Below are positions 541 to 58,900 of a DNA stretch of 64,000 nt, one piece after another (the first letter of the stretch is position 1; each line of letters opens with the position of its first letter). The position numbers and the translations under genes are program-made. This stretch comes from Azolla caroliniana. Lineage: Eukaryota > Plantae > Polypodiophyta. Below the pieces are notes generated by a model. It saw nothing but the letters and a program-made list of their open reading frames with translations, was not told the DNA's origin and made no database searches. The DNA is taken from the NCBI GenBank assembly GCA_043228905.1, contig JBHGNT010000011.1:11036001-11100000 (forward strand), written 5' to 3'.

Positions 541-738
541 TCTGAGAAAACATATTGGTATTCCTGAGCGCTAACAGTTTCCATTTTACTAGGGAGGATA
601 ACAAGATTAGTATGAAGGGAAAAAAGGGGCAACAAGATGAGGGAAACCGGAAAGAAGGCCGGAAAAAAGGGGATATGTAAGAAGATAAAAGGAAGAGGAG
701 GAAAGGAGGAGACGGAAGGAGGGAAAATCGGTTCAAAC

Positions 739-843
739 TGTCAAGAATAGTACTGAGACAGAGAAGAAATTAGTACTAAGAGAGGAATATTACTACTAAG
801 AGGAATAGAGGGTGTAGAACACTCGAGAGAAGGAGAGAGAGAG

Positions 844-896
<53 letters not shown>

Positions 897-1206
897 TCGA
901 GGGAGAGAAAATGATGATGACAACAATATATTATGTGAGAAGAATACACAAGGAAGGCTGGGAGGCTTAAGACTGGCATTGAACCAATTTGGTTTGAAAT
1001 AATGCCTTGTGCCTCCTTTTATAGTGTTCTCAGGAGTAACCCTGAAGCTTCTAGAAGTTCCAGAGAAATCTGGAATATACATTAATTTTCTATAGTAAAA
1101 CTTAAATAAAATTAATATCCTACGTATTACAATAGGTAGTGTAATGGTCAAGAGCTCGACCCATCTAACATAACGTCATGGGTTCGAGTCTTGTCATATC
1201 ATGACA
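739..1206 (-). mobile_element. 5' LTR of the gypsy element, inserted into a copia integrase
   Basis: TGTCA...TGACA termini; minus-strand TATAAAA at 1017-1023; internal (GA)n/(GT)n; copia integrase sequence begins at 1207. Confidence 0.8.
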
Positions 1207-2844
1207 CGAAGTCCCGACCATGCATATTCCTTGGATACGGCGATGATGAGTTCGGTTACCGGGTGTGGGATCTGGTCGACAAGAAGGTGTTCCGAAGTCG
1301 GAACATAGTCTTCATGGAAGACAGGACCATTGCCGACTAGGAGTTGGAGAAGAAGGTGATGAACTCCGGATCATCCAATGAAAAATGGGCTTGAGGACAC
1401 AAGGACTTACCCGGTTGAAAACCGGATGACACTCCGACAAACCGGCTGGATACAGACAAGAAACCGAACCAACCGAAGAAGAAGGAGACACCAGAATCGG
1501 ACAAAGATCCCAAATCGGATTAAGATGAGGAACAAACGGAGGTTCCTCCGGTAGTCAGAAACCAAGGACAGAGATATCCTCTCCGAGAGAGAAGAGACCC
1601 TCGGAGATTTCCGGATGCAGAGCATGTGTTGCTAACCAATGAGGTGGAACCGGAAAGCTTCGAGACAGCACTCCTACATCGCGACCTCGAAGCATAAATC
1701 TACATGCATCAACCGGAAGGATTTGAGAAGAAAGGGAAGGAGCACTTGGTGTGCCAGCTGAAGAAGAGCTTATACGGACTGAAGCAAAGCCCTTTGGCAA
1801 TGGTACCGAAAGTTCGACTCCATGACAGACCAAGGGTAACACAAGACGCAGGCCGAGCACTGCGTGTTTGTGAAGAAATTTGACGGAGACCAAGGCAAGA
1901 TTCGGATGCTGAGGAAGGCTCTGAACTAGACCTTCTCAATGAAAGACTTGGGTCCGGCAAGACAGATATTGGGAATGCACATAATCTGGAACCGGTCGAA
2001 GAAGCTGTTGTGGTTGTCACATGAGAAGTACGTGACAAAGGTGCTTCAACGGTTGAACATGTCGGAAGCGAAATCGGTCGGATCGACACTTCCGGCAAAC
2101 TGCAAGCTATCCGGAAAACAAAGTTCGAGGACAAAGGCGGAGAAGACGGATATGATGAAGATACCATATGCCTCTGCCGTCGGAAGCTTGATGTACGCGA
2201 TGGTATGTACCCGACCGAATATATGATATGCAGTCGGAGTGGTGAGCGGTTCATGAGCAATCCTGGAAAAGAGCACTGGAACGCGGTCAAGTGGATACTC
2301 CGATATCTTAAAGGCACCTCGAGTATGTGCCTCCGGTTCGGCTCCGGTAATCCCCAACATGACGTATTCACGAATTCGGATATGTCGGCTAATGCGGATA
2401 CCAGCCGGTCTACATCTAGACATGTCATGACTTATGCAGGGAGAGTTGTTTCGTGGCAGTCAAGGCTGCAAAAGACGGTTGCGTTGTCAAGCACAGAGGC
2501 AGAGTACATGGCAGCTGTGGAAGCCGACAAGGAAATAATCTAGATTAAGGACTTCATCGGAGAGCTAGGGATCCAACATGAGGAATACCAGCTCTACTGC
2601 GACAGTCAAAGTGCCATCCACCTTGCAAAGAACGCGGCCTACCATTCCCAGACGAAACATATCCAACGGAGGTACCACTGGATCCGAGAGAGAGTAGAAG
2701 ATCAAGAGTTCGTGCTGACGAAGTTCCACACGGAGGAGAACGAGTCGGATATGTTGACCAAGGTGTTGACAACCGACAAGCTGGACTCGTGTCGAAAGCG
2801 GATCAGGCTGGTGAGACGCCCCATGCCGGAGTGAAGGGGGAGAT
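1207..2844 (+). mobile_element. Decayed Ty1/copia pol (integrase C-term, partly deleted RT, RNase H) with PPT
   Basis: CIFLGYGDDEFGYRVWD..VFRSRNIVF; LYGLKQSP; MKDLGPARQILGM; PYASAVGSLMYAMVCTRP; VALSSTEAEY; PPT TGAAGGGGGAGAT ending 2844; multiple stops and frameshifts. Confidence 0.92.
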
Positions 2845-3409
2845 TGTTGGCAAATTGGTCCCTCTGGATGGGATTCAGTTATGGATGAAGAGGACCCGGT
2901 GAGCATCGGAAGAGATCCGGTAACCGGATCGGATGGACCCGATGAGAACCGGAAGAGTAGACATATTTGTAAATATGTTTTGAATAAGCCTATTAAGGCT
3001 ATATTTGTAAATAGCCCTAAGTTCATATAAGTATAAATATGACTTAGGGCAATCATTTTAGAAAAGAAGAGTGAGGGTTGTAGTCATATTGTTGTATAGA
3101 GTGAGTGACAGAGAGAGAGGGATATACATAACGGTTTCTGTTGTAACCGTCGCTTGGCAAAGAAACAAAGCTCGAGGTCGTTGCCTCCGAGTCTCTGATT
3201 GTACCTTTCTCATATAGTGATAGTTCGGAGTTTGTGGGCTCCTGTGATTTTTCCCTATTAGGGTTTTCGACGTAAACATCCTGTGTACTCTCTATTGAAT
3301 CGTGTGTACGTGCGTTCACTCCCTATTTCCCATTTCTGTGTTTCATTCTCATTGAAGTGATCCAAGACTCGGTTGTGGCCAAGCAATATTCCGCGTTGTT
3401 CTCTTCACA
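2845..3409 (+). mobile_element. 3' LTR of the copia element
   Basis: Starts TGTTGG directly after the PPT and ends ...CACA; similar to LTRs at 42160, 45493 and 49998. Confidence 0.75.
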
Positions 3410-3640
3410 ATGTGCTATGTGAGCACTTTTATACAAGTCCTTAAAACGAGTGACAGAAGTACTAACAAGTACTTCAATGCTCATACTGAGTGACTGACAC
3501 TAACTCCTAAGAATATGCCTACATACTAGGCTAGGATCGTAGGCCTCTAACGGCCTACCGGTTAAACTTAGATACGGACACCGATCCGGCTCTTGGCTTA
3601 GTCAGCCGATCCAGATCATGTTGAGCTTGCTTGCTTAACA
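3410..3640 (-). mobile_element. Partial LTR of a second copia family
   Basis: Ends ...TTGAGCTTGCTTGCTTAACA and contains CTTTTATACAAGTCC, like the LTRs at 46991-47423 and 53840-54223. Confidence 0.65.
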
Positions 3641-5466
3641 AGGGAATTATTTGAATTCAACATTTAGAAGCCGATTTGGTGAAGATATCGAGTGATCTTC
3701 GAGTGCCAAGCATGTGGTGCTTGCTTGAGTCCATACAACGGCTTCTTGAGTTAGCAAATTGTTGGCGAGTGTTTGGTCAATTCGAAACTAGGTGGTTGAA
3801 TCATGAAAACCTCCTCTTCTAATTCACCTTGTAGGAAGGCATTCTTTACGTTCATTTGGTGGAGGTGCCACCCTTTTGCAGTTGCGAGTGCAATGACTAT
3901 ATGAACAGTCGTCATCTTTGCAACCGGGGCAAAGGTCCCCTCATAATCAACTCCGTGTGTTCGAGCATATCCTTTGGCTACGAGTTGTGCCTTGTAGCGA
4001 GTGACCGAGTCGTTGGCATTATATTGTCTTGTTTTTGCATAGAGCCTGCATTTCTTCGTTCATAGTTTCGATCCATCATGGATCCTTGGCTACCTCGGAA
4101 AAAATTTCTAGTTCTCGGATTATCGCCACCTTCATCATAAAGGTATAATGTTATGCCATATACTCATCGTAACCGAATCGGCTAACCGGGTTTTTCTCTT
4201 GGGTAGAGTGATAGAGCTTCTCGTTTGCAGAGATTATGGATTTCTTTGCTCCATTCGTCCGGATGATTGGGATGTCAAGGCCTTCGAACTCATAGTCAAG
4301 GGAGTGAGTTGACTCATTGTCGATTGGATTTTTGTATTTTGGCATTTTGGCCTTCCCTTTGTCTAGCTTCGGACTCGATTCAGATGTGCTTTGGTCACTC
4401 GGGGGCTCTTGTGGTCCACTCGGCCTTGTCATAACTGAACTTTCTTCGAACATCTACCTGGTTCAATCTTCCTCTCCTTTGTCTTGGTCGGCCTAATCCG
4501 GGTCAATTTTTGTCGGAATCGGAGGCGTCTCTGGTTCGTACCAGGATGCCAACTTGTTGAAAACGACATCTCGACTCACTCGAAATTTTCGGGTGGATAG
4601 ATTGTAACATTTGTATCCCTTTTGTTCGAGTGAGTAGCCTATGAGGATACATTTCTCCAACTTCGGATCAAGCTTTTGTAGCTTCTCGTCGGGAATATGT
4701 CCATAGGCCATTGAGCCGAATATCCGAATGTGGGATAAATCTAACTTCTTTCCGAAGAACTTCACGTCAAGGGTTATGTCATGTACCCCAGAGGTTGTAC
4801 ACCTGTTCATGAGATAGACGGTTGTGTTAGCCGCTTTTGCCCAATACGATTTTGGTAGGTTCTTCTTGTTCATCATTTCCCTTGCCACCTCTACTATGTG
4901 ACGATTCTTGAGTTTGGCTACTCCATTTTGTTGAGGTGTGTGTCAGCATGAGAATTCTCGTTCAATTCCTTCCTTTCGGAGATACGTTGTAAATTCATTT
5001 GAGAAATACTCATTGCCTCCATCCGATCGAAGGCATCAAACATGCCGACTTGTGGTTTTTTCGACTTCGTTTTTAAACTTTTGGAAGTGTCTGAACACTT
5101 CACTCTTTTGCCGCATAGGGTAAATCTAGGTATGCCTACAGAAGTCGTCGATAAACATGACATAATATTGTCAACCACCGAATGTTGCAGTCTGGGCTGG
5201 TCCCCATACATCTTAATGTACTACATCCAGGATCCCTTTCTTCACGTTCCTATCTTTCGGAAACAGTTGTCGATGTTGTTTGCCGAACTTATAGGCTTCA
5301 CATACACCTACCATCTCCTTTTCGGTAAAAGTCCGGAGTTCGATGATGACTCCTTTGATTGCATTCCTTTGAGCTTTTGGAGTTTGATATGGCCAATTGT
5401 TTTGTGCCACAATTTCAAGTCAGTTTTGACATTGAGACCTTTTGCAAACATAGCCGACTTCACCTC
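3641..5466 (-). mobile_element. Decayed, internally deleted Ty1/copia pol (GAG-pre-integrase, integrase, RT fragment)
   Basis: ORFs LPKSYWAKAANTTVYLMNR..KCILIGYSLEQKGYKCYN..VSRDVVF and CEAYKFGKQHR; RT motifs WHLHQMNVKNAFLQGELEE and PLYGLKQA at about 3720-3990. Confidence 0.88.
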
Positions 5467-5967
5467 TGTCACAGACACACCAATACAAGACTATGACAAA
5501 GCACAGATGACAAGGCTACAACCGATAAGGTTACAAACGTGGAACTCGACATGATGGGGATAGAAACTCGGGAAGTTGGGAGCGACGAGATGAGGAAGTT
5601 AAGACTCTAGGAACAATACAAGAGCATAAAGAGAGAGATGTAAATCAAGGAGAGAAGATGGGGCTAAACGAGAATACTAGATTGATGTGTCAATGACTGG
5701 TGTTGAATCCCTTGAAAGGGACCAAGGAGGTTACAAGTATTTATACTGTGAGTCGAAGTACATGCATTAGAATATTTTGGAGAATATTCTAGAACCCTCT
5801 AGAACCTTCTAGTTCTAGAACTTTCTAAAAACTCCTAGAACTTAAAATAGATAATCTACTAATAATCTACTAAGATATACATAACATGACGATATGTTGG
5901 TTAGAATACAACACTTGACTATATGTGTCAAGAGGTCAAGAGTTCAAATCTTAACATGATTGTGACA
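5467..5967 (-). mobile_element. Gypsy-type LTR (related to 739-1206) preceded by a PPT
   Basis: TGTCACA...TGTGACA termini; minus-strand PPT AAGGGGAGGATAA at 5968-5980; minus-strand TATAAATA near 5740. Confidence 0.75.
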
Positions 5968-5980
5968 TTATCCTCCCCTT

Positions 5981-6720
5981 GACACTTAATTTAGTATGCA
6001 TGCAAATTTTTTCCAATGCTTTCATAAGTTTTTGTGCATCTCCTAAAGTATTTGCAAAAAGCATTACATCATCTGCATATAGCAAAAGCATAATCACAAC
6101 ATTCCCAATGGCAACTTCCTCAACACATTCTTCCTTTGAAAACTTGGTAACCATTGCTTCCAATTCATCAATGCATAGACCAAATAGTGTTGGTGAGAGT
6201 GGGCATCTTTGCTTAACACCAATAGTGCTTTTGAAAAACTCTGAAAGTCTATCTCTCATACGCACACAACATATAACCTACTCATAAATTCGGGAAATTG
6301 CAAGCATATATTCACTTGGCACCTCAAGTTCTTCCATTCACCTCCAAGGATGCTCAAGAGGTACCATATCAAAAGCTTTCTTGAAGTCTACAAAGCAACA
6401 ATATAAACCTTTACCTCTAAGGCGACTTTCCTCCATTAATACTTGAAGGGTGACAAGGTGATCAATGGTGCTATGGTGTTTTCGAAAGCCAGCTTGTCCA
6501 TAAGCTCTCTTACCATTTTTATCAGCCCATACACTTATCTTTGATTCCATTATACATCCAAATAGTTTTGCCATTAATGAGCCAACCATGATGGTTTGAT
6601 AGTTGTTTGCATTATCTACATCTCCACCTTTATGTAAAGGTTAGATCCAATATGTAGTCCAATCGTACAGCATACCATGTTGCAATGCATCATTAAACAT
6701 ATCGCTTATGCATACATGTG
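5981..6720 (-). mobile_element. LINE (non-LTR) reverse transcriptase fragment
   Basis: QAGFRKHHSTIDH, CFVDFKKAFDMV, GVKQRCPLSPTLF and LLYADD motifs in ORFs 6338-6589 and 5951-6265. Confidence 0.92.
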
Positions 6721-9700
6721 CAAATCTAGAGAGAGAGAGAGAAGTTATATAGCTTAGAACAAGAAGCTATATTAGTGAAAAATGAAATTACATCCAACAG
6801 TAACTAAGTTACAAAAGGTTGGTTTAAATACCAACTAGTCTAGGGCAACTGCCCTTTCTATTATTTACAAAACTAGCCTAGTGTGTCCAATGCTAGTGTG
6901 AAGGCACTTCATTGGGAAAGTTGAGTTCGATTCTCAACACATAAGGAACCCACTACTTTGGTAGAGCTTTTATTCAACATATGAGAGATATGTTGATTAG
7001 TAAGCCATATTCCATTTTCTCTTTTTGTCATTATTTAAATGTACACATTTCACCCTAGCCAAAGGTCTAGTTCCCCCAAAATTGCAAGATTAGCTAAACC
7101 ACTTCCTAATTTTGAAAATTCAAGCATCAAATTTGAAAGCTCTCCATAATAAAATGATAGATGTCCCTAGGTGTGTTTTCAATTTATTTGGATGGAGATT
7201 ATGTTTTGTGCCAATATTCATTTTCACATTTTCTAGAATTTTGTTTAATAGATAAATTCCAAAATAATTGAATGATTCATGATTCACACTTGTTAGTTGG
7301 ATGAGTGATCATATAAAATTAAATCCTTGTGTAAGTATGGCTTGTTTGAATTATCATCTACTCCAAGTTATAGGAGTCGATCCACGGAAGCCCTAAATGT
7401 CATCGCTTCACATGGTTATGAACTAGAATGTGATCAACAATCCAAATTTAAAGATTTGATAGAACATTGTCAACTCTAGTAATGAAGCATGATTATATAG
7501 ACTTCAATTTTCAATTGCTCAGAATTTAATTTGAATGTTATAAGGCTAGTTTCCTAAGACATTGTGAGCTTTTATAGCTAAAATGAATACACATGCATAA
7601 CCTCGTGATGCGTAAGCAAATCCTAAAAGTAGTTGCATTCATTACCTTTGTATCCAAATGTGGAACATGTGTCCTAGCAATGCTCTATATGTGATCCCAA
7701 TATTCATTTATTCACAAAGCACGCCCACATTTCCATCTTTGCCCCCATATATAAATGAGAGTGTCAAATCTCGACACCAAAATGATTATTGTTGGACAAT
7801 TGTATGTTGTGAGAAGAAACAAAGACAACATGGAACATATGTCATTGTACGTTCTACCAAATAATATTGATTTGTTTCAGATGAAGCACAGTAATTCTAA
7901 TTATCCAAAAAGAATGAAAAAAGCAGTGTGCTCTTCTACGCGTGAAAAGATGTGCATGAGCTTGCTAAAAGGAATCTCGGAGAAGGAGAGGCATAAGCTA
8001 AAGTAGTATATAAAAGAAAGTGTCATGGTCCAAGAATCCAATAAAGATGTCCCCAATCCTGAGAAGACAACCATGCACAAACAAGGAAGTGGACAATGAA
8101 GTCAAAGAGAAAGCTCAAAAGCATTTAAAATAATTGAACTCATTTCGCTTCTGAAAAGATGGGGAATTGCGAAACGCCACTACCAATAGAAGAAACATAA
8201 CCATTCCCATGAAAGGACATGAACCCAACTCAATATAATGGAATGAAAAATTTGTAAATTGTAATTGTGTTTTAATACATATTCACAACGAAACAAACCC
8301 CTTCGTCTCTTTGTGAGAAACAATATGTGACACTTAAAAGATATAATTGAAGATTGAAGAAAATTTTGCAACATTAGTGCACATGGCTTGCACATCTCTC
8401 TAGTCCCTACACACGGATCCTTGTGTTTCTTCCATTTGTCATATTATACCCACTCTTATTATATCACATAACATGTCCCGATCTTCATGTGCACAATTCA
8501 TATCTCAACTACCAAGTTGACATCCCTCCCATTTTTTTCCAAACTTTTCCAAGGGAAAGTAAAAAAATTATAGTAATCTTCTTAACAAGACATAAACTGC
8601 ATCTATAAATAATTTGCCCTTTGCAAGCAATATCCCAAGTAACAAACAAAATTTAGTAAACTGATTGATCATATATTGGCTCTCTATCCAAACATGACCC
8701 CTTGGTTTTGTACTACCATAAGAGAAATTGAGAGTGTATTAAATATGTTAGGATTAGGCCATAATTGTCTAGTTGAATGACACTTCCAAAGACTCCTTGA
8801 AGAGAATTATTTAGAGTTATGAATGGAAATTATTTGAGGCCTTGCAAATGAGTTTACTAAAATCACTTCATTGCATTGAACTCTAAACTTTTGTAGAGTT
8901 AATTTTCTTGAAAGGTGGCATGCAATTTTATTACATATTTTGCAAAAAGAAACATTTCAAAGCACTTCATTCTATATGTTTTAGCCCTCGGTAGGAACAA
9001 CTACTGCGGGCATAGATATCTTGCCTACTTTAGTTAAGGTTGTGAGATGCATCGTCCTCGAGGGTTACACATTAAAAACTCTTGAGCAAATTCACAAAAG
9101 TAGGGCTAGCCTCTTTGGATTTCTAAGCAATTACCATATGTTTTTGGAATATTGGTTGTAATCCCCTTACTTCATTGTGAAACCTTCATCGGGCTAAAAG
9201 CTCTCAAATCCTTCAAAGAGAAAAGCCATTTGGTGATACGTAGACAACCATGCTTATGCTTTAGGTTGATGCCGCATGTTATGCATAGTGCATGGAATTC
9301 ATACATGAATCAATGTCTAGATGTTTGGACATGTTAGAAATCAAGGAACTCCCATGTGATTGCATATGTTACAAGAATCTAGTTTTTCATGCCAATGACA
9401 TTTTGTGGTGGACCAAGAGACAATGTTATGATTCAAAGAACTTGAAAGAATTATGAATTGCAAAGCAAAAAGTAGCAAACAAGCCCGGTACAATCTGCAT
9501 GGTCTTCCTCAACAAGTTTGATCATTCATAAACACAAGGTACCAATAGTCAAAATCCACACAACATAGAAACAATGTGTGTAGATGAATGCAATGGATTA
9601 GAGAGCCAGGGAAGGGTGCCCAAGTGATTACAGAGGTGGAATCTTTCATAATGAGCTATAAAGAACTTGGCGGTGGGAGAAAACTATCGACCATCTTGAC

Positions 9701-10096
9701 ATGGGGGGTCGGGGTTTAGCATTTACTATGTGGGGAAACCTCAGGGTGGGTAAAAGGCTCACGAATGGTTGATGATGCTGACTAAGTTCGACAAGGGGCT
9801 AACTTCTTGCTTGCACACAAGCTTCCACGAGGCAAGCACTTGTTATTTTCTTTGTTGTTTGTTTGTTTGTTGTTGTTGTTGTTGTTGTGGAGGTGGTGGT
9901 GGTGGGTGTTGTTAGTCGCAATGTAGGTAAGCTTTAAAGCGAGTGTTTCAAAGTGGTTCATGTGATTGGCATATGGACAGACGTGCGAAGGAGCTCTTTG
10001 ACGTTCTAAGCTGACGGGAGTCTCATTTTGATGTTTCGTGGCACGATACATCTACAAAGGTGTAGGAGCATAATCGGGCAACCGAAATGTTGGTTG

Positions 10097-13703: not shown

Positions 13704-13789
13704 ATATAATCCCCATCTTATCCTTCTTTCGCTACAAAAGATATCTCTCTTCATAAGTACCTTACCCTAGTGGTAAGTTTTTACACTAC

Positions 13790-14242
13790 AACCTTACCAA
13801 CTAAGCTACATCCATCTAGGCACAAGCATTATGTCTTGGGTTCGAAACCCAATTATCTCACCTCTCTATTAGATACTTCATCAATCTTGGGTTCCATTGG
13901 GCAACCTTACCAACTGAGCTACATCCATATGGGCACAAGCATTATGTCTTGGGTTCAAAACCCAATTATCTCACCTCTCTATTAGGTGCTTCATCTTACA
14001 TATCTCTTTTAATTCACTAGATGCAACTGTGAAATGTAGGGGTTGAACCCATGACCTCCTGGTCTCCATTGGGCAACCTTACCAACTGAGCTACATCCAT
14101 CTGGGCACAAGCATTATGTCCTGGGTTCGAAACCCAGTTATCTCACCTCTCTATTAGATACTTCATCTTACATATCTCTTTTAATTCACTAGATGCAACT
14201 GTGGAATGTAGGGGTTGAACCCATGACCTCCCGGTCTCCATT
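13790..14242 (-). repeat. Tandem array (172-bp period, partial and complete copies) of a tRNA-derived SINE/TRIM-like unit
   Basis: The minus strand reads GGATGTAGCTCAGTTGGTAAGG...AGGTCATGGGTTCAACCC (A box, variable loop, B box). Unit 14028-14172 is bounded by TG...CA, with 27-bp spacers at 14001-14027 and 14173-14199. Confidence 0.7.
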
Positions 14243-14667
14243 CTTGTCAATCTCCTCTTTTACTTTAGCCGCGTAATTCGGATTCATCCGGTAACGTCTC
14301 TGCGCTACCGGTTTCGCAGCCTTGCTTAAATGAATCTGGTGTTGATATAATTGCAGGTCCAATCCCCGCATGTCTTCATATGACCACGCAAATACATCCT
14401 GGAATTCTTTCAATAATGTGACCATTGCCAATTTCTCCTTTGGTGGCATTTCTTTGGCCACATGCACCGGTCTTGCTTCTTCGTCGGTTCCCAAATTCAC
14501 TTCTTCCAATTGTGATGCTTTCACCTGTTGTGATACCGCCATCTCCCACTCTAGGGCTTCTTGTGCTTGTCGCAGTTACCAGATCACGTCCCTATCCGGC
14601 TCCTCACCGGCATCCTCCGGTTGCCCAATATATGGGGAGACCTTCTTTAGTGCTTGGGATCATGCGT
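14243..14667 (-). mobile_element. Ty3/gypsy (Tat/Athila-like) pol fragment, protease-RT linker
   Basis: LEEVNLGT..LLKEFQDVFAWSYEDMRGLD..HQIHL..KPVAQRRYRMNP..VKEEIDK. Confidence 0.88.
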
Positions 14668-32800: not shown

Positions 32801-35800
32801 ACTACAATGACAAACGTAGTGTTCTTCAGATTCCACTCCTTGATGACACAATTGGCAAATTCTCTCTTCTAGAGGTAGTCGTGTATATCTGCCCACCTCA
32901 ATCTGTAGCTGATGTGATGAGGTTCGCAGCTGCCCTATCACACTACGCAACGCATAGGATAGATGTATGTCCATATAAGGTGGCCTTATGACAAATCCAT
33001 CCTCCGATGTATGTAAGAAGTGTGTCTTATAGTGGGCCATCTTTGTACCAAGTGCTATTTTGGGGCTGATCCATGTTATCTTGTTTTCTAAGTTAATAAT
33101 ATCAGTTCGGATCACTCTATTCTTTTCCACTTTGGTCATATTGAGATGGGGACAGTCCAAGCTATATTGGAACGGGGGTAGTGCATTTATACTCATGCCA
33201 TGTCAAGTTATCACAGCGTTGGATCCCGTATATAGACAACATTCTGGTCACACTGTTGGGCATAAAACGACAGTGAGGGCATGGCAATGATACATTGGAT
33301 TTCCTGTATACACACAACATTCTAGTTGTGGTTGCCTGAGCTGAGACAGAACCGTAGACAACTGAGATTGAGTACTGGGCAAAACCTATAGCTGTCTAGG
33401 AATCCTTGTTGATCTTTAATTTTACCTGAAACCAAGTCATAGATTGACCAAAAATATTTAGGAGAAAAGTTTCCTTCTAGATTATGGGGTTTATAGTCTT
33501 TAGTGATTTCTTACTATTTTTATAAAAAAATAATTGAAACTGTCTCGGGGAGCAGGAGAGATCGTAACTCTTCATGCAATGAGTGTGAGATTGTGTGTAT
33601 GTCTCATGCATCTCAGAATTATACAAGCTAGTCATAAAACAGTCATTGCATTGATGCGGATTTCTCCTTGCTTTCAGCAATAATGGGAGCTAGCCCCTTC
33701 ACTTTATCCGTTCATAAGTAGATATTACAAGTATTTTTCCACAGGTTAAAACTGCAGAATCAGAATCAGAAGAAGTTAAGACAGCTGGGCTGCAACATCA
33801 CTTCCTTAAAATTGAAAAGTATAAGCAAGCAGAATTAGCAACAAGGGAGAGAACTCTTACTGAAATGGACAAGCCAAAAGGAGCAGAGCTCAAAGGACTG
33901 CAGATCGCACTTATTGACATGAAAGAGTCGAAACAAGCAGATTTGGCAAGGCTGCAGGGTGCACTTACTGAAATTGAAGAGTCAAAAGGAGCAGAGCTAG
34001 AAAGGCTTCAGAATGCATTTACTGAAATGGAACAATCAAAAGACATTGAGCTAAAAATGCTGCAGAATAAACTAGTTGAGGCGGAAGCATCCAAAAAAGC
34101 AGAATTGGAAATGTTGCAGACTGCACTTCTTGAAATGGAACAACGAAAAATATCAGAGATAACCAGGCTGCAACGTAAACTTCATATCAAGGAAGCAGAA
34201 TTGGGAAGGATGGAAATGGCAGTTCTTCAAACAGAGCTGGCAAGGCTCCTCATGCTTTGTGTGTATGTGTCTTTGCATTAATCAGACATAGGATTTTAAA
34301 AGTTTAGAGTCCTCAGTTCCGTGGATACTTTTTCTAATTTGGTTACACCAATCATGCAGGCTAACCCATTGATCACTTTATTGTAAGAATTTATTTATAA
34401 ATAATCTTCCCATCTTTCTACAGGATAAAACAAGAGAAACAGCAGAATGTCAAGAGTTGGCGTTATTTGAAATGGAAAAGTCAAAACAAAAAGAGCTCGC
34501 AGGGGTGGAGGCCACGCTTATTGAAATGGAAAAGTCGAAAGGAGCAGAGCTCACTAGGCTACAGAGTGCACTTATTGAGATGGAAAAGTCTAAAGGAGAA
34601 GAGGTGGCAAGGCTGGAGGCTGCACTCCTTCGCATGGAAGAATCAAAAGATGCAGCGGTGGCAGAGTTGCAGGCAGCACTACTTGAAATGGAAGAATTGA
34701 AAAGAGAAGAGATATCAAGGATGGAAAGTGCATTCCTTCAAATGGAAGAAACACACAGTGCAGAACTAGCAAGGCTGCAAAGCACAATTCATGACATAGA
34801 AGAGAAAAAGGAGGCAGAGCTAGCACAGCTACGAAATGCACTTTTTGAAATGCAACAACAGGCAGAGTCAATGGGCATCCTTATTCTAAAAGAACGTGAG
34901 ACAAATAAAATGTTATCCATCCAACTGGCCAGTTTGATTAAAATAAGGCCATTGCTTGAAGTCACTGAAGCTAAAGCATACCAGCTTGCAAAAGAGAACG
35001 GGCATTTAAGAGTATGATCTCCCTCTCTTTTGCATGCATTTTCTTTTAAGTGCCCTTGATAGATGGTGCTGATAATACAATATACTTATAGATACTCAAA
35101 GACATCCATGAAAATAAGTTACTAGAAGCTGAAAAAGAATTGCTTAATGCAAGAAAAGACAGTGAGCACAAGGTTCAAAGGAGCAATGAAGCTGATTCAA
35201 GAATGGATAAAGTACAGGAAACTTTGGACAGGTCCAAATTCCATTACTTTTTTAGAATTGATTAGATAATATCTTTCAACAAAGCAAACAGATGTTTATT
35301 GACTATGGCTGACACAGAATTACACTAACAGGCATTGTTTTTCAGGTAATGTTTTAGGGTCACGGTGTCGGTAAGTGATACAAAATCTGTACAAGATGCA
35401 CAGATGTTTTCGAAAAAGTGAAAGACAGGATCTTTAATAGTTTTTGAAAAGAAACCATATGTCATCATTCTCAAGTTTTTTATCAATATGATTATGTAAA
35501 GCTATGATAAATAAATCTTAGGAATGGATAAATATAACTTATTTTTTTAGGAAAAAGCTAGCAAGCACCAAGCTTTAGAGAAGAAAATTTGGACGAATAA
35601 CATGTGTCATTACCCTCTATGCATTTCATGTATAGAATCACTAAAAACTTACGGTTGTGCAGGTTGGAAGAGAAAATAGCATATATGGAGTTAGAAAATC
35701 AAGCTCTTCGAAGACAAGCACAAGTATTCTCTCCAAATGGCCGTAAAGATCATGTGATGCCTCTTCACCAGGTAGTTTTATATCTTGACTCATGATATGA

Positions 35801-42159: not shown

Positions 42160-44043
42160 TGTTAGGATCGTGACCGACAACAACCAATTTCTCCCCCTTG
42201 TATATTCGGGTGCAAAGAACATGAATGGCAATATGTTGACAAAGAGAAAAACGAAAGATAGAGACACAAGTATTTTTAACGTGGAAAACCCAAATGGGAA
42301 AAACCACGTGGAGTTCACAAACACCAAAACCAATCATTATAAGGGCAGGAGTACAACAAGAGGATTCAAAGGCAATGACCTTGAACTCTTCTTCGTCGAC
42401 TGACAGCGATAGAGTTACACACTCTCACACATTCACTCCTATCTAGTTACAAAGGCAACTACCTTCTCCAACTATACAACAATAACCAACTACTAATGAT
42501 TTATCTCACCCATAAGGTTTGCCCTAGTTGTATTTATACTTATACAAATTTTTGGCTATCTACATATATAGCCCACAAGGGGCACATTTAGGCTATTTAC
42601 AAATATAGTCTCCTGAATCCGTCATAAAATCGACTATTCGATTTCGGCCTCCGCCAATTACCCACTTACTCCACCCAATTCAAGTTCGTTCTCTTCCCAT
42701 CTCGAGGGACTTGTTATCTAACAAACTCCCCTTCACTCCGGTATGGGTTACTTTACCAATCCAACCCTTTTTCGGCACTCGTCCAACTTTTCGGCCGACA
42801 TCAACTTCGTACGCATGTCCAACTCGTTCTCTGTTGTGTGCACCTTTACTAGAGAAAATTCCCTTTCTTCTACTCTGTCTTGGAGCCAATGGTATCTCCT
42901 TTGGATGTGCTTGCTCCTCAAGTGGTACTCGACGTTCTTCGCAAGGTGGATGGCACTCTCGTTGTCGAAGTAGAGTCAGAATTCATCTTGCCGAATTCTC
43001 AACTCTCCGATGAACTCCTTCATCCATATTATTTCCTTGCCGACTTCCGTTGTAGCCATGTACTCGGCTTCTGTGGTTGACAGCGCCACGACCTTCTACA
43101 ACCTCCACTGCCACAAAATAGCTCCCCTTCCATAAGTCTAATGTTCTTGATGTGGACGTGGATCGGCTAGTATCCGCATAAGTCGTCATGTCCGAATTGG
43201 TATAACCTTCCAATGTGGGGTTACTTGAGCCGAATCGAAGACACACGCTCCAGTGCCTCTTAGGTACTGAAGTATCCATTTGATTGTCGTCTAATGTTCC
43301 TTGCCGGGATTGCTCATGAATTGGCTAACCACTCCGACTGTGTATCCAATGTCAGGCCTGGTACAAACCATCGCGTACATCAGGCTTCCGACTGCTGAGG
43401 CATAGGGCACCTTATTCATCTCAGCCTTCTCCATTTTCATTTTCGGACATTGGTTTTTGCTCAGCTTGTAGTTTGTCGGCAGTGTCTAGCCGACCGTTTT
43501 CGCGCTTTCCATGTCCAATCTTTAGACCACCTTTGTCACGTACTTCTCTTGTGACAAGCACAATAGCTTCTTTGTCCGGTCCCGAACAATGTGCATTCCC
43601 AGGATTATCTTTGCTTGACCCATATCCTTCATTGAGAATGACCTACTCAAGGCCTTCTTCAAGCTTTCAATTTTCTTTGGGTCTCGTTCGACAATCAACA
43701 TGTCGTCCACGTATAGCAGGAGAATGAGGAAATCTCCTCTATTGAACTTCTTCACAAACACGGAGTGATCAGTCTGCGTTTTGTGGTACTCTTGATCTGC
43801 CATGGAGGATTCAAATTTTCGTTACCATTGTCAAGGTGCCTGCTTCAACCCATACAAGCTCTTTCTCAATCAACATACTAGGTTTTCTTTACCTTTCTCC
43901 ACGAATCCTTCTGGCTGGTGCATGTAAATCTCTTCCTCCAAATCTCCATGAAGGAAGGCAGTCTTGACATCTAGCTGCTCGACTTCGAGATCCATGTTGG
44001 CCGCTATGCTCAACACTATTCGGATTGATGTAATATTCACCAC
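42160..44043 (-). mobile_element. Ty1/copia 3' portion: RT, RNase H, PPT and 3' LTR (42160-42723)
   Basis: EQLDVKTAFLHGDLEEEIYM, LLLYVDDML, FSMKDMG; PPT TGAAGGGGGAGTT adjacent to the LTR; TG...CA termini. Confidence 0.9.
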
Positions 44044-50789: not shown

Positions 50790-51532
50790 TAGAGCAAAAG
50801 ATATTATCTTTGTGTGGAGCATAGAGAGTTCAAGGTAACTTGAACTAAGAGTGGAGGTGGGCTAGCTACTTGTAAAGGGTTTTGGCCAACCAAAACCGGA
50901 CCGACGATGGAGACGACGGTAACCGGCGAGGCACCGGTAACCGGCATCCGGTGACTAGATAAATAAATATATAAATATATATACATATATACATATACAA
51001 GGAGGGCAAGTAAGGATTCGAACCTTGCACCTCCGAGTTAAGAGTCAATTGGCTTACCATTAAGCCATGCCATTTAGTTGAATTTATATTTCTATCATTG
51101 TACTTTTATGTGTAAATTCTCATACATGAGAGCTAAAATGAGTGACATGGTTATCATGCACCACATGTAATACATAAGCACCAAATGGCAAGCATGCATT
51201 TTATGCATGTCTTGTACCCTCACATGCATCATATGCATGAGAGCATCTATAAAAGAAGGAAGGGGGAGGAGAAAAAACGCATTTTTTTTATGAAATTAAG
51301 AAGAAGAAATTCGTTATCAAATTGATCGTGTAACTTGTTTCTTAAATCTAAAGTTAAAAGTTCAATCAATCTCTCTCAATCGTGTAATCTCAACTTCTCT
51401 CTTTCCCAATCTATCTTAAGTACTTTCTTGCTAAAGCTTGCGCCAAAGCTTGTACCGACTTTGAATCCTTCCGGTCCAGAACCCCGGCGGTTCCGCCTCA
51501 CGATCCGCGTGTAGTGACGGATCTTCACGACA
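50790..51532. mobile_element. Partial LTR-like segment ending ...CACGACA, containing a tRNA-Lys-like sequence
   Basis: Ends in CA exactly where copia RT (YAQTHGVDY) resumes; left boundary not resolved. Confidence 0.5.
51001..51072 (-). pseudogene. tRNA-derived (Lys-CUU-like) sequence with A and B boxes
   Basis: GGCATGGCTTAATGGTAAGCCAATTGACTCTTAACTCGGAGGTGCAAGGTTCGAATCCTTACTTGCC: A box TGGCTTAATGG, CT-CTT-AA loop, B box GGTTCGAATCC; stems imperfect. Confidence 0.6.
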
Positions 51533-55951: not shown

Positions 55952-58900
55952 AACACCAGGTCATTTGAAACAGGTAATATGTCGCATTCTCTTTTTCATA
56001 TCTTAGTGAGATGTTAAAAAATGCCTTATTTAAGCAGAATTTCAACAAGGCATGACGCATGTGTATGTGGTTTATGAAAACATAGCGAAAAAAAGAACTA
56101 ACTAATATCACGTCAACAAAATCATCCGACGTATATTCTATCTACCATGTTTTTGTCCAAATCTTAGACAGGGGTGTATTTGTCAACACAAGTATAATAG
56201 TAACACGGGTCCTTGTGCATATTCTAAAAAGCATGCCCCATTGAATAAGTGACTTCTTCTAATTATGTGTGTATATTTAAATATAATACATCTTAAAGCA
56301 AATTGTGAACCTTGCAATTAAGAGATACTACTATGTCAAGAGAGAATTTCCATTGACACGTGATACATGACACTGTCAATGTATAAATAAACTAGTCTAC
56401 AATAACATTCCAATCATACGAGTAAATGATAGAGTATAAACTTATCTCCGATATACCCCAAATGATAAAGGAGAGTTTAGATAACATGTACACATACAAG
56501 TATACTTAATTTCTAAGTTCAATGATTGTTACACGAAAATTATAAGTAAGCTCAACTTATATATTATGTCAAAATTTAACAATTCATATTGTTCAAAATT
56601 TACAATAAGCCATAACCATTCAATCGAATAATAAGTCTGGTAAAGCCGTCTACTCAAGATTAGCTTTTTCATCAGGATTGTCCTCATTGGCTTCGTCAGT
56701 ACAATAAGTTGAATTGTTAGTATGTTCAGACTCTGAAACGTCTTCTAATTCAACAAGTTGCCCTGCGTCTTCATCTATAGTTCCACAAGTTTTCTAAAAG
56801 TCATCTGGAACATCTAAGTTTTATTGATATGATTTGCCCCAACTTCTTGGTCTTGATCAGGACAACCCCAGATACCTTGGATCCTCATTTTGATGACATT
56901 AACTTGCTCAAGGTCCTTCTCTAATGCAACAGAGTTCCTGATAATCTTTAAGGCGTATGTTTTAGTAGTACATGACAGTAGAATGAAATTGCACAGGTAA
57001 CATCAAACTGAAGAATAGAATATAACGTTAATCTAAATTGATGTAAGTTTTATATTATATACCTGTGTCAGAAAACTAATCTAAAACCCATTGAAATTTT
57101 GAAACAATAAAATTTGAAAAAATAAAAAATCTTGGATTTTTAATTGGAATCCAATGCGATGCACTAGATTTCAGTTGAAAATCCAAGTTTTTTTTTTTGT
57201 AATTTTTAAAAAAATTTCCATTAAAAAATAAAAAATGGATTTTCAGCTAAACTACTATGCACTACATTATATTTTAGTATATATAGCTAGAATCTAATGC
57301 AATGCGTTGGATTAGAGTCGAAAATCCATTTTTCTTTTTTCTTTTTCCAATGTTATTTATTTATTTATTTTCCATATAAAATAATAATAAACGGCTTTTC
57401 AACTGAAATCCGATACACTACATCAGATCGTAGTCTATACAGCTAGACATTGATGCATTGCATCACATTTTAGCTGGCAATCCTCTTTCTTTTCAATTGT
57501 TTTTCATTTTCTCAAAAAATAAATAAAACTATATTAAAAAAGTGGATTTCCAACTAAAATCTAATGCACTACATTGAATTTCAATTAAAAATCCAAATTT
57601 CTTTTAGGTTTTTCATAAAACAATGAGATAATAAAAAAATATTACATTTTCAACAAAATCTGAACCATTGAGTCGGATTTCAATTGCAAATTAATGTTTT
57701 ATGAAAAAACATAAGAAAAATATTGGAGTTTCAACGGAAATCCGATGCACTGCATCGGATTTCTGTTGAAACTCAGTGATTTTGAACGGAAATCCGATGC
57801 AGTGCATCGGATTTCCATTGAAAATCCTGTTGAAATGATGTGTTTTCAACGGGAATCCGATGCAGTGCATCGGATTCCCGTTGAAAACACATCATTTTAA
57901 ATGGAGAAAATCACAATTTGTTTATTTTTAACGCTTTTTTAGAGAAAAATATAAACAAATAAGAAAATTTGTAAACAAACAAGAAAAAGTGGACCTTCAA
58001 TGGAAATCCGATGCAGTGCATCGGATTTCCATTGAAAATCCATTTTTTTCAATTCCTATATATTTATTTATGATAAAAACAAAAACAATTCAAAACAAAT
58101 ACAAAAACAAATTCAAAATATCTGAAAAATTGGAAACAAATAAGACAAAATGGATTTTCAATAGAAATCCGATGTAGTGCATCGGATTTCTGTTGAAAAC
58201 CCATTTTTTGCAATTTTTATTTATTTATTTATGGGAAAAAAATACAAAAAATTAAAAAAATACAAAAAATTATTTTAAAATATGAAAATTTGGTAACAAA
58301 TAGCAAAAAGTGAACTTTCAATAGAAATCCGATGCAATGCATCGGATTTCCTTTGAAAATTCATTTTTTCAATTTCTATATAGTTATTTATGAGAAAATA
58401 GACAAACAAAATACCAAAAAAAATCTAAAAACTATAAAAATTTGGAAAAAAATAAGAAAAAGTGGATTTCCATTGAAAATCTAGTTTTTCAGTATTTATT
58501 TATTTTTTATAGAAAAAATTCAAAAAAATTCAAAAAAAAAAGTAAATTTGGAAAAAAAGACGTAAAAGTGGACTTTCAACCAAAATCCGATGCAGTGCAT
58601 CGGATTTCCGTTGAAAATCCATTTTTTCAATTTTTATTTATTTTTTTTTTGGAAAAATAAAAACAAATTCAAAAACAATTCAAAAAATAAGAAAATTTTC
58701 AAAAAAATAAGAGAAATTGGATTTTCAATTGAATCCGATGCACGGAATTGGATTTCCATTGAAATCTAATTTTTCAATTTTTATTTATTTATTTATGAGT
58801 AAAATAAAAAATGTTTATTTATTTATTTATGGGAAAATGTTTTATTTTTTCAATTTGTATTTATTTATGTATTTTCGGGAAATCCATGCAATGTATCATA

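What the first reader, a model, noticed from the sequence alone, without database searches (positions are those of the whole stretch)
739..5967. Gypsy LTRs carry a tRNA-like Pol III module at the U3 tip, antisense to the element
Seen: LTR 739-1206 ends on + with A-box-like TAGTGTAATGG (1137-1147), then CGTC-ATGGGTTCGAGTC (B box 1181-1190), just inside the terminal TGACA. LTR 5467-5967 has, at the equivalent place, TGGTTAGA, a 6-bp stem/7-nt loop (CTTGAC-TATATGT-GTCAAG, 5914-5932), the canonical AGGTC variable loop and GAGTTCAAATC (5940-5950). The two LTRs are otherwise very diverged, so the module appears positionally conserved. Known: small-RNA-gene-derived LTRs are described mainly in non-autonomous elements (5S in Cassandra; tRNA-like in Helenus, from memory). 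Here one LTR is attached to a gag-coding internal region. Inference: coding chromoviruses may use TFIIIC-binding boxes as an insulator or an antisense Pol III promoter, and could be partners or ancestors of tRNA-bearing TRIMs.
Basis: partly seen in the sequence, partly recalled or inferred. Interest (0 to 1): 0.75.

Follow-up and report, generated by a model that had tools for sequence, protein, structure and literature searches.

The report
Backward Pol III promoter caps chromovirus LTRs
A whole branch of protein-coding plant jumping genes keeps the two promoter boxes of a tRNA gene, back to front, at the outer tip of its end repeats while the DNA around them has drifted apart, which likely gives the element its own chromatin shield in front of its real promoter.

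Summary
Real and clade-wide. The two window LTRs belong to different Tcn1-like self-priming chromoviruses, probably of a moss. LTR1 has perfect antisense A and B boxes; LTR2 keeps the B half but has no credible A box. In relatives, 27 of 27 LTR starts placed by chromodomain and PPT (11 clusters; full gag-pol in many) carry antisense A+B at tRNA spacing (32-33 nt), 11-40 nt from the edge. Across nine families core box positions are 0.88 identical, against 0.41 at silent pol sites and 0.35 in the anticodon arm. Cloverleaf stems and a terminator are not conserved, so selection acts on promoter boxes, not on a tRNA. One subclade has a second antisense module in frame inside pol. Outgroup chromoviruses lack the tip module. 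Likely role: a TFIIIC/TFIIIB site that keeps the LTR's heat-shock/TATA Pol II promoter open in heterochromatin; no binding or RNA data could be obtained. It is not Helenus/TRIMp3 (those are non-autonomous and sense). Within one family the boxes are no better conserved than U3. The scan noted tRNA-like pieces in fungal elements before, mostly as relics; nothing matched this sequence.

The parts
739..1206 (-). LTR1: 5' LTR of a Tcn1-like chromovirus (TG...CA); U3 at the high end
   Evidence: 76-87% identical over most of its length to LTRs in L001, L002, L007, L063
2..481 (-). gag remnant (DUF4939, Retrotrans_gag, Ty3_capsid); 5' part broken in this copy, pol lies outside the window
   Evidence: 85% aa identity to gag of the full-length element L007
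727..737 (-). self-priming type PBS right after the LTR (not a tRNA PBS)
   Evidence: pairs 10 of 11 with 988-978
978..988 (-). self-primer at the predicted Pol II start, 35 nt after TATA
   Evidence: same 34-35 nt spacing in 18 of 18 relatives where both LTR ends could be placed
1017..1023 (-). TATA box of the LTR Pol II promoter
1044..1056 (-). three-unit heat-shock-element-like motif (pattern recalled)
1095..1125 (+). AT-rich stretch upstream of the A box, where plant tRNA genes have their TATA-like TFIIIB site
   Evidence: 82-90% AT at -40..-16 from T8 over 20 variants; PMC3082873 passages
1137..1147 (+). A box, antisense to the element
   Evidence: 0 mismatches
1173..1177 (+). variable-loop position 44-48; this copy reads ACGTC, most contigs of the family read G at 1174
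   Evidence: 97% of summed contig depth in X1; same direction in X2, X5, X11
1181..1190 (+). B box, antisense, ending 16 nt from the LTR edge
1207..2834 (+). Copia pol fragment into which element 1 is inserted
   Evidence: RVT_2; 70% match to another Copia at 42695-43967
3411..5466 (-). second Copia pol fragment, abutting LTR2
   Evidence: RVT_2, SH3_retrovirus
5467..5967 (-). LTR2: 3' LTR of another family of the same clade (inferred from PPT, TATA spacing, R-start motif and HSE-like array)
   Evidence: short matches to LTRs in L023/L038/L039
5697..5745 (-). TATA (5745-5738) and R-start motif shared with the clade
5898..5932 (+). degenerate A-box region and 6-bp hairpin; the loop carries frequent indels among copies
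5933..5950 (+). AGGTC plus B box, ending 17 nt from the LTR edge
   Evidence: 21.5 bits vs shuffled maximum 17.0
5968..5983 (-). polypurine tract of element 2
   Evidence: same form as PPTs
5984..6640 (-). LINE reverse-transcriptase fragment in place of element 2's own pol
   Evidence: RVT_1; other LINE copies run on differently at 5979 (table 7)

Best explanation
One clade of autonomous, self-priming Tcn1-like chromoviruses keeps an antisense A box and B box at tRNA spacing at the outer tip of U3, and these likely bind TFIIIC (and TFIIIB on the AT-rich stretch inward of them) to form a nucleosome-poor barrier between the flanking chromatin and the element's own Pol II promoter. Shown: the layout LTR edge - B box - A box - AT-rich stretch - (often) heat-shock elements - TATA - self-primer; purifying selection on the boxes; loss of the cloverleaf and of a fixed terminator. 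Inferred: origin from a tRNA gene or tRNA-derived SINE head captured once in the clade's ancestor; TFIIIC/TFIIIB binding; a benefit to elements whose chromodomain integrase would place them in heterochromatin; the backward orientation would keep Pol III from running into the Pol II promoter. Any outward Pol III transcript would be a by-product.
For: 27 of 27 LTR starts placed by chromodomain and PPT, without reference to the boxes, have antisense A+B at 32-33 nt; 23 of 27 have <=2 mismatches, against 1 of 27 on the sense strand and none in the next 135 nt. 0 of 300 shuffles reach the score for each of 11 cluster representatives. Nine families with full pol (67-87% aa identity; Pfam RT, RNase H, integrase, chromo): core box positions 0.88, positions 44-47 (not in my search pattern) 0.89, anticodon arm 0.35, fourfold-degenerate pol sites 0.41. 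Positions that the promoter consensus leaves free vary (9, 11, 57, 59) while 8, 18, 19, 53, 54, 55, 58 are 19-20 of 20; U33 is 9 of 20 and R37 6 of 20. Stem pairing equals partner-shuffled controls (AC 0.36 vs 0.35, T 0.63 vs 0.64, D 0.66 vs 0.62; acceptor 0.40 vs 0.35, p 0.03). The B end stays 11-40 nt from the edge while the distance to TATA varies 114-253 nt. AT peak upstream fits plant tRNA promoters (PMC3082873). TFIIIC sites act as barriers in yeasts (PMC6950938); the moss chromovirus RLG1 sits in heterochromatin yet is transcribed (PMC7466625).
Against: No binding, chromatin or RNA data. Within the LTR1 family the boxes are not better conserved than U3 (A 0.83, B 0.91, U3 0.89-0.92; 12 copies, rough alignment). 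An unanchored 9-mer test gave only 7 of 10 families at the B box, and 1 of 20 shuffles reached that. C56 is lost in 8 of 38 modules, including L028, which has an open pol; G10 is kept in only 6 of 20; LTR2's family has no good A box. CAA lies near the start in only 8 of 20. DNA methylation impairs TFIIIC binding (PMC11346459), so most genomic copies may be unbound. SM-Tcn1 of Selaginella reached more than 200 copies without a visible module (by eye). The second module inside pol is not at a boundary. Barrier activity of TFIIIC in plants was not found in what I read.
Confidence: 0.5

Rival explanations
1. The module is a working antisense Pol III promoter and the RNA is what is selected: from the 3' LTR it would read across the PPT into the chromodomain region and tune copy number, silencing or plus-strand priming.
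For: Both boxes and an AT-rich upstream stretch are kept, not the B box alone. The independent module inside pol is also antisense.
Against: No common terminator: T4 lies inside the LTR in 9 of 27, elsewhere at 93-286 nt or beyond the DNA held, so the products would differ from family to family. No conserved RNA structure.
Confidence: 0.2
2. The sense genomic RNA uses these tracts to pair with the D and T arms of a host tRNA, as the U3 half of the bipartite PBS of yeast Ty3 does, to aid packaging, dimer formation or strand transfer.
For: Ty3 has D- and T-arm complements in U3 (PMC5371799). Orientation and place fit. A pairing model with wobble gives long runs (median 18 nt), though that test cannot tell pairing from transition bias.
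Against: These elements self-prime (18 of 18 relatives and LTR1), so no tRNA primer needs anchoring. A58 is kept in 38 of 38 although it is methylated and cannot pair in mature tRNA (recalled). G18 and G53 do not take the wobble-neutral change. Positions 10 and 12 take all four bases. The exact gene spacing is kept.
Confidence: 0.1
3. TFIIIC bound at the cDNA end, or at resident LTRs, guides integration (a Ty3-like tether or landing pad).
For: The module is held close to the integrase attachment end.
Against: None of 13 LTR-host junctions has an A+B pair with <=2 mismatches within 500 nt (best 3). Host tRNA genes in 4 of 79 loci lie at no fixed distance. The integrase already has a chromodomain.
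Confidence: 0.1
4. A neutral relic of a SINE head that once landed in an ancestral LTR.
For: SINE-like heads in the window score like the modules and share the AGGTC-B block. No within-family excess conservation.
Against: Box identity of 0.88 has survived near-saturation of silent sites (0.41) and of the anticodon arm (0.35). The spacing is fixed in 27 of 27.
Confidence: 0.05

Closest known systems
Helenus / TRIMp3 (Kojima 2024, PMC10886601; parts 1-4 of 6, passages and one supplement passage read)
   Same: tRNA-derived sequence in an LTR with conservation limited to boxes A and B; likely SINE origin; not a functional tRNA.
   Different: Helenus is non-autonomous (311-1263 bp), tRNA-primed, and in the consensus sequences I saw has the module in sense, as its presumed own promoter. 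Here the elements are about 5.3 kb with gag-pol, self-priming, have a Pol II TATA, and the module is antisense at the U3 tip. The paper argues that autonomous partners must use Pol II and are unlikely to share such LTR sequence; it notes that 'not a few' Repbase LTRs hold tRNA-like parts but kept only TRIMs.
Cassandra TRIM (as described in PMC10886601)
   Same: Pol III internal promoter conserved inside the LTR.
   Different: 5S-type promoter, non-autonomous, drives the element's own transcript.
Tcn1 clade chromoviruses (SM-Tcn1, PMC2864245 passages and supplement S3; Neumann 2019, PMC6317226 passages)
   Same: gag-pol with chromodomain, 415-535 nt LTRs, no tRNA PBS, self-priming, same LTR-PBS junction form as SM-Tcn1 (by eye).
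   Different: SM-Tcn1's LTR tip shows tandem repeats and no A/B pair (by eye). The passages read mention no Pol III boxes.
tDNA / extra-TFIIIC barriers (PMC6950938, PMC11346459 passages)
   Same: A/B-box DNA that could bind TFIIIC at a chromatin edge.
   Different: Known as host loci in yeasts and animals; here built into a mobile, protein-coding element and copied to both ends; activity untested.
Ty3 bipartite PBS (PMC5371799 passages)
   Same: Complements of tRNA D and T arms in U3 of an autonomous Gypsy element.
   Different: Ty3 is primed by one tRNA that these tracts match; these elements self-prime and match no single tRNA.

Membership tests
Tcn1-like chromovirus | Gypsy pol order PR-RT-RH-INT with C-terminal chromodomain | tested here: met
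   9 of 9 full pol frames scanned; the window's own pol lies outside the window, link through gag 85% and LTR 87% to L007
Tcn1-like chromovirus | no tRNA PBS; self-priming | tested here: met
   9-10 of 11 pairs, 34-35 nt after TATA, in 18 of 18 relatives and LTR1
Tcn1-like chromovirus | groups with reference Tcn1 in an RT tree | tested here: inconclusive
   one clade (SH-aLRT 99, quick tree) among unnamed relatives; no named reference was in the tree
Tcn1-like chromovirus | 5-bp target site duplication | not tested
   the far end of each window element is missing
Type-2 Pol III promoter | A box and B box at tRNA spacing | tested here: met
   for LTR1 and 27 of 27 relatives; LTR2 has the B half only
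Type-2 Pol III promoter | plant upstream TATA-like and CAA motifs | tested here: inconclusive
   AT peak; loose TATA-like pattern in 15 of 20 with no control; CAA in 8 of 20
Type-2 Pol III promoter | T-run terminator | tested here: not met
   inside the LTR in 9 of 27 only
Type-2 Pol III promoter | TFIIIC / Pol III occupancy or transcript | not testable with these tools
   needs ChIP or stranded small-RNA data
tRNA gene | cloverleaf with U33 and R37 | tested here: not met
   the two host tRNAs in the same Rfam search were found
Helenus / TRIMp3 | non-autonomous, about 0.3-1.3 kb, no coding capacity | tested here: not met
   gag about 430 aa and pol about 1200 aa open
Helenus / TRIMp3 | tRNA-derived sequence in the LTR | tested here: met
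Helenus / TRIMp3 | module oriented to transcribe the element | tested here: not met
   antisense in 27 of 27; sense in the Helenus LTRs seen
TFIIIC chromatin barrier | blocks heterochromatin spread in a B-box-dependent way | not testable with these tools
   needs a reporter assay

The most novel reading that the evidence does not exclude
Self-insulating transposons: heterochromatin-seeking chromoviruses have domesticated a host Pol III promoter as a portable TFIIIC barrier at the LTR edge. Capture is recurrent: once at the U3 tip of this clade, again in frame inside pol of a subclade, and separately (two sense copies) in the LTR of a distant plant chromovirus. Every insertion, solo LTRs included, then scatters TFIIIC sites through a genome whose lineage lacks CTCF.
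Probability: 0.4. Interest if true: 0.8.

Novelty: new variant of a known kind. Interest (0 to 1): 0.62.

Why it matters
How chromodomain retrotransposons that land in silent chromatin stay transcribed is an open question; a conserved 54-nt cis-element with known host binding factors makes it testable by point mutation in a moss with gene targeting. It extends small-RNA-gene promoters in LTRs from non-autonomous TRIMs to autonomous elements, in a role that cannot be driving the genomic RNA. These families are abundant (4,000-10,000 contig pieces laid per run on a 1.4-kb stretch that also holds a Copia piece), so they may supply many TFIIIC sites in such genomes.

Tried and rejected
No whole genome is held, so no genome-wide count. 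No RNA holder listed; expression untested. Viral-contig scans with gag and integrase found no relative, nor did the first genome-contig scan. Relaxed ARAGORN (-ps85/80) gave noise everywhere. Rfam found no tRNA at either LTR or at modules in 13 loci. One element bounded by LTR1 and LTR2: rejected (5' vs 3' LTR, no similarity, two Copia fragments between). Conserved cloverleaf: rejected. Isotype of origin: undecided; three host tRNA genes and two SINE-like heads give 0.46-0.55 mean identity, anticodon arm 0.26-0.31. Targeting to tRNA genes: not seen. The wobble-pairing test does not discriminate. The unanchored 9-mer test was weak. Sister element L080 lacks its U3 tip in the contig, so the age of the capture is not bracketed on that side. 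The careful tree did not finish; the quick tree was used. Two reviews on tDNA insulators were not held. An HIV-1 U3 tRNA-like tract is recalled only; one search gave a listing and I read none of it. Five .DOC supplements of PMC2864245 could not be read and the REXdb supplements were not opened; they may bear on novelty.
Full report
Setting. The window is repeat-rich plant DNA (GC 39%; myosin and IQ exons at 28.6-30.3 kb, many Copia fragments). No whole genome is held. A moss host is inferred from the element type: Tcn1 elements occur in mosses and club-mosses (PMC6317226 passages).

Anatomy. LTR1 (739-1206) is the 5' LTR of a minus-strand Gypsy element: gag domains at 2-481, TATA at 1023-1017, and a PBS that pairs 10 of 11 with the LTR 35 nt after the TATA, i.e. 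self-priming. It sits in a plus-strand Copia fragment. LTR2 (5467-5967) is a 3' LTR with a PPT at 5968-5983; upstream lies a LINE RT, not its own pol. It shares TATA spacing, the R-start motif and a heat-shock-like array with the same clade. The two LTRs do not match each other and belong to different elements.

The observation. LTR1 has a 0-mismatch A box and B box (consensus recalled), antisense, 33 nt apart; 0 of 300 shuffles match that. Most contigs of its family read G at 1174, which gives the usual AGGTC. LTR2 has the AGGTC-B block (21.5 bits; 20 shuffled windows give at most 17.0) but no A box (-0.5 bits), and its hairpin loop is full of indels among copies. Neither is called a tRNA by ARAGORN or Rfam.

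Relatives. A gag alignment fetched 79 loci. Many are high-coverage contigs with open gag (about 430 aa) and pol (about 1200 aa); 9 of 9 pol frames scanned have RT, RNase H, integrase and chromodomain. I placed LTR starts by chromodomain end and PPT alone: 29 hits, two dropped (L045, 9 nt left; L071, no PPT), one start re-set by eye (L033). All 27 carry antisense A+B at 32-33 nt, 23 with at most 2 mismatches; the sense strand does so in 1 of 27 and the next 135 nt in none. The 27 fall into 11 clusters and include near-duplicates from different assemblies; each of the 11 representatives beats 300 of 300 shuffles. The B end lies 11-40 nt from the edge; the distance to TATA varies from 114 to 253 nt. 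Self-priming holds in 18 of 18 LTRs with both ends placed.

What is conserved. Over 20 non-redundant variants (from 38 modules, which were picked by box match) the kept columns are T8, A14-G19, 44-47 and the B core. Stem pairing is at the level of partner-shuffled controls, except a slight acceptor excess (0.40 vs 0.35, p 0.03) at too low a level to fold. For nine families chosen for a full pol (67-87% aa identity), pairwise identity is 0.88 at core box positions and 0.89 at 44-47, against 0.35 in the anticodon arm and 0.41 at fourfold-degenerate pol sites. This is purifying selection on promoter boxes. Upstream DNA is 82-90% AT at -40..-16, CAA is present in only 8 of 20, and no terminator is shared (9 of 27 inside the LTR). 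Against: no excess conservation within the LTR1 family, a weak unanchored 9-mer test, C56 lost in 8 of 38.

Range. The 25 RT-RNase H rows from these loci form one clade (SH-aLRT 99, quick tree of 91 rows). In 87 outgroup loci (571 kb, eukaryotic Gypsy elements of unknown hosts) a whole-locus scan at 2 mismatches gave 4 hits: two outside the LTR tip, and two perfect sense-strand pairs in the LTR of L163, a distant plant-type chromovirus. Outgroup LTR tips placed by script scored 4 or worse (21, some placements doubtful; 12 of 27 tried). The sister L080 lacks its tip. SM-Tcn1 shows no pair by eye. Separately, 7 of 28 PR-RT linkers, all in one subclade, hold a second antisense pair in frame (0 mismatches in L038 and L067), and those linkers are longer (348-369 vs 219-330 nt).

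Mechanism. U3 reads edge - B - A - AT-rich - heat-shock elements (6 of 11 clusters and both window LTRs) - TATA - self-primer. The module cannot make the genomic RNA: it points outward. The conservation pattern is that of TFIIIC recognition. TFIIIC sites are barriers in yeasts (PMC6950938 passages), tRNA genes lie in nucleosome-poor DNA (PMC11346459 passages), and a moss chromovirus is transcribed from heterochromatic islands (PMC7466625 passages). I therefore favour a portable barrier or promoter-opener (0.5). Rivals: a regulatory antisense Pol III RNA (0.2); Ty3-like pairing of genomic RNA with tRNA arms (0.1; PMC5371799 passages; the wobble test does not exclude it, self-priming argues against); integration tethering (0.1; no pair at 13 of 13 junctions); neutral relic (0.05). 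All functional steps are inferred.

Novelty. Helenus and Cassandra are the nearest kinds, but they are non-autonomous and use the module in sense (PMC10886601, parts 1-4 and a supplement passage). Ten literature searches of a library that lacks most subscription papers showed no description of this in Tcn1 or other autonomous chromoviruses; passages of PMC12477314 and PMC9033089 held nothing on it. Kojima does remark that many Repbase LTRs have tRNA-like parts, so a database note may exist. Earlier scan notes report tRNA-like pieces in fungal elements, mostly as relics; a sequence look-up found nothing, and the eight notes shown for this genome concern a different, PPT-less lineage. Verdict: new variant of a known kind, interest 0.62.

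Noticed in passing
L038:2963 -, L067:11403 -, L023:1020 -, L024:527 -, L027:3241 -, L030:2663 -, L031:3538 -: Second antisense A/B pair (spacing 31) inside the open pol frame, in the protease-RT linker of one subclade; apparently an independent in-frame capture.
   Followed up: partly
L163:4820-5070: A distant plant-type chromovirus has two perfect A/B pairs in sense orientation about 100-330 nt into its LTR; its nearest relatives in the set showed none.
   Followed up: partly
window 1044-1056 and about 5780-5830; LTRs of L002, L016, L023, L030, L047, L069: Arrays of heat-shock-element-like units between the module and TATA in 6 of 11 clusters; suggests heat-inducible transcription.
   Followed up: partly
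window 50960-51080 (-), 13770-14245: tRNA-derived SINE-like heads: a clean one at 51024 with an AT-repeat tail, and a tandem at 14049 and 14221 that shares 13 letters with the LTR modules' variable loop and B box; possible source family.
   Followed up: partly
SM-Tcn1 supplement S3 of PMC2864245: By eye it has a self-priming-type PBS with a complement just after a TATA-like stretch, although the paper reports no evidence for self-priming.
   Followed up: no
window 727-737 and 978-988; The self-priming PBS/primer pair of many families itself resembles a B-box core; probably chance.
   Followed up: no
window 1173-1206; L025:4039-4085: In several families the letters at 45-50 are complementary to the LTR terminus, and in L025 both differ together; a hairpin directly after the PPT is possible. 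Not tested.
   Followed up: no
window 5979-5984: A LINE RT fragment is joined to the PPT of LTR2 at a short shared sequence; looks like a recombination or template-switch junction.
   Followed up: no
L067:527-9323: Tandem array of intron-bearing tRNA-Tyr-like genes or pseudogenes upstream of an element that lacks its 5' LTR.
   Followed up: no
L033:4878-5010: LTR starts with TA rather than TG and scores a sense-strand A/B pair (2 mismatches) overlapping the antisense one.
   Followed up: no
window 57100-58900 and 33800-34860: Palindromic repeat array with units of about 150-160 nt; 54-nt coding repeats (coiled-coil-like) near the myosin exons.
   Followed up: no
L080-L156: Many prokaryotic genome assemblies hold eukaryotic Gypsy contigs as contamination.
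   Followed up: no
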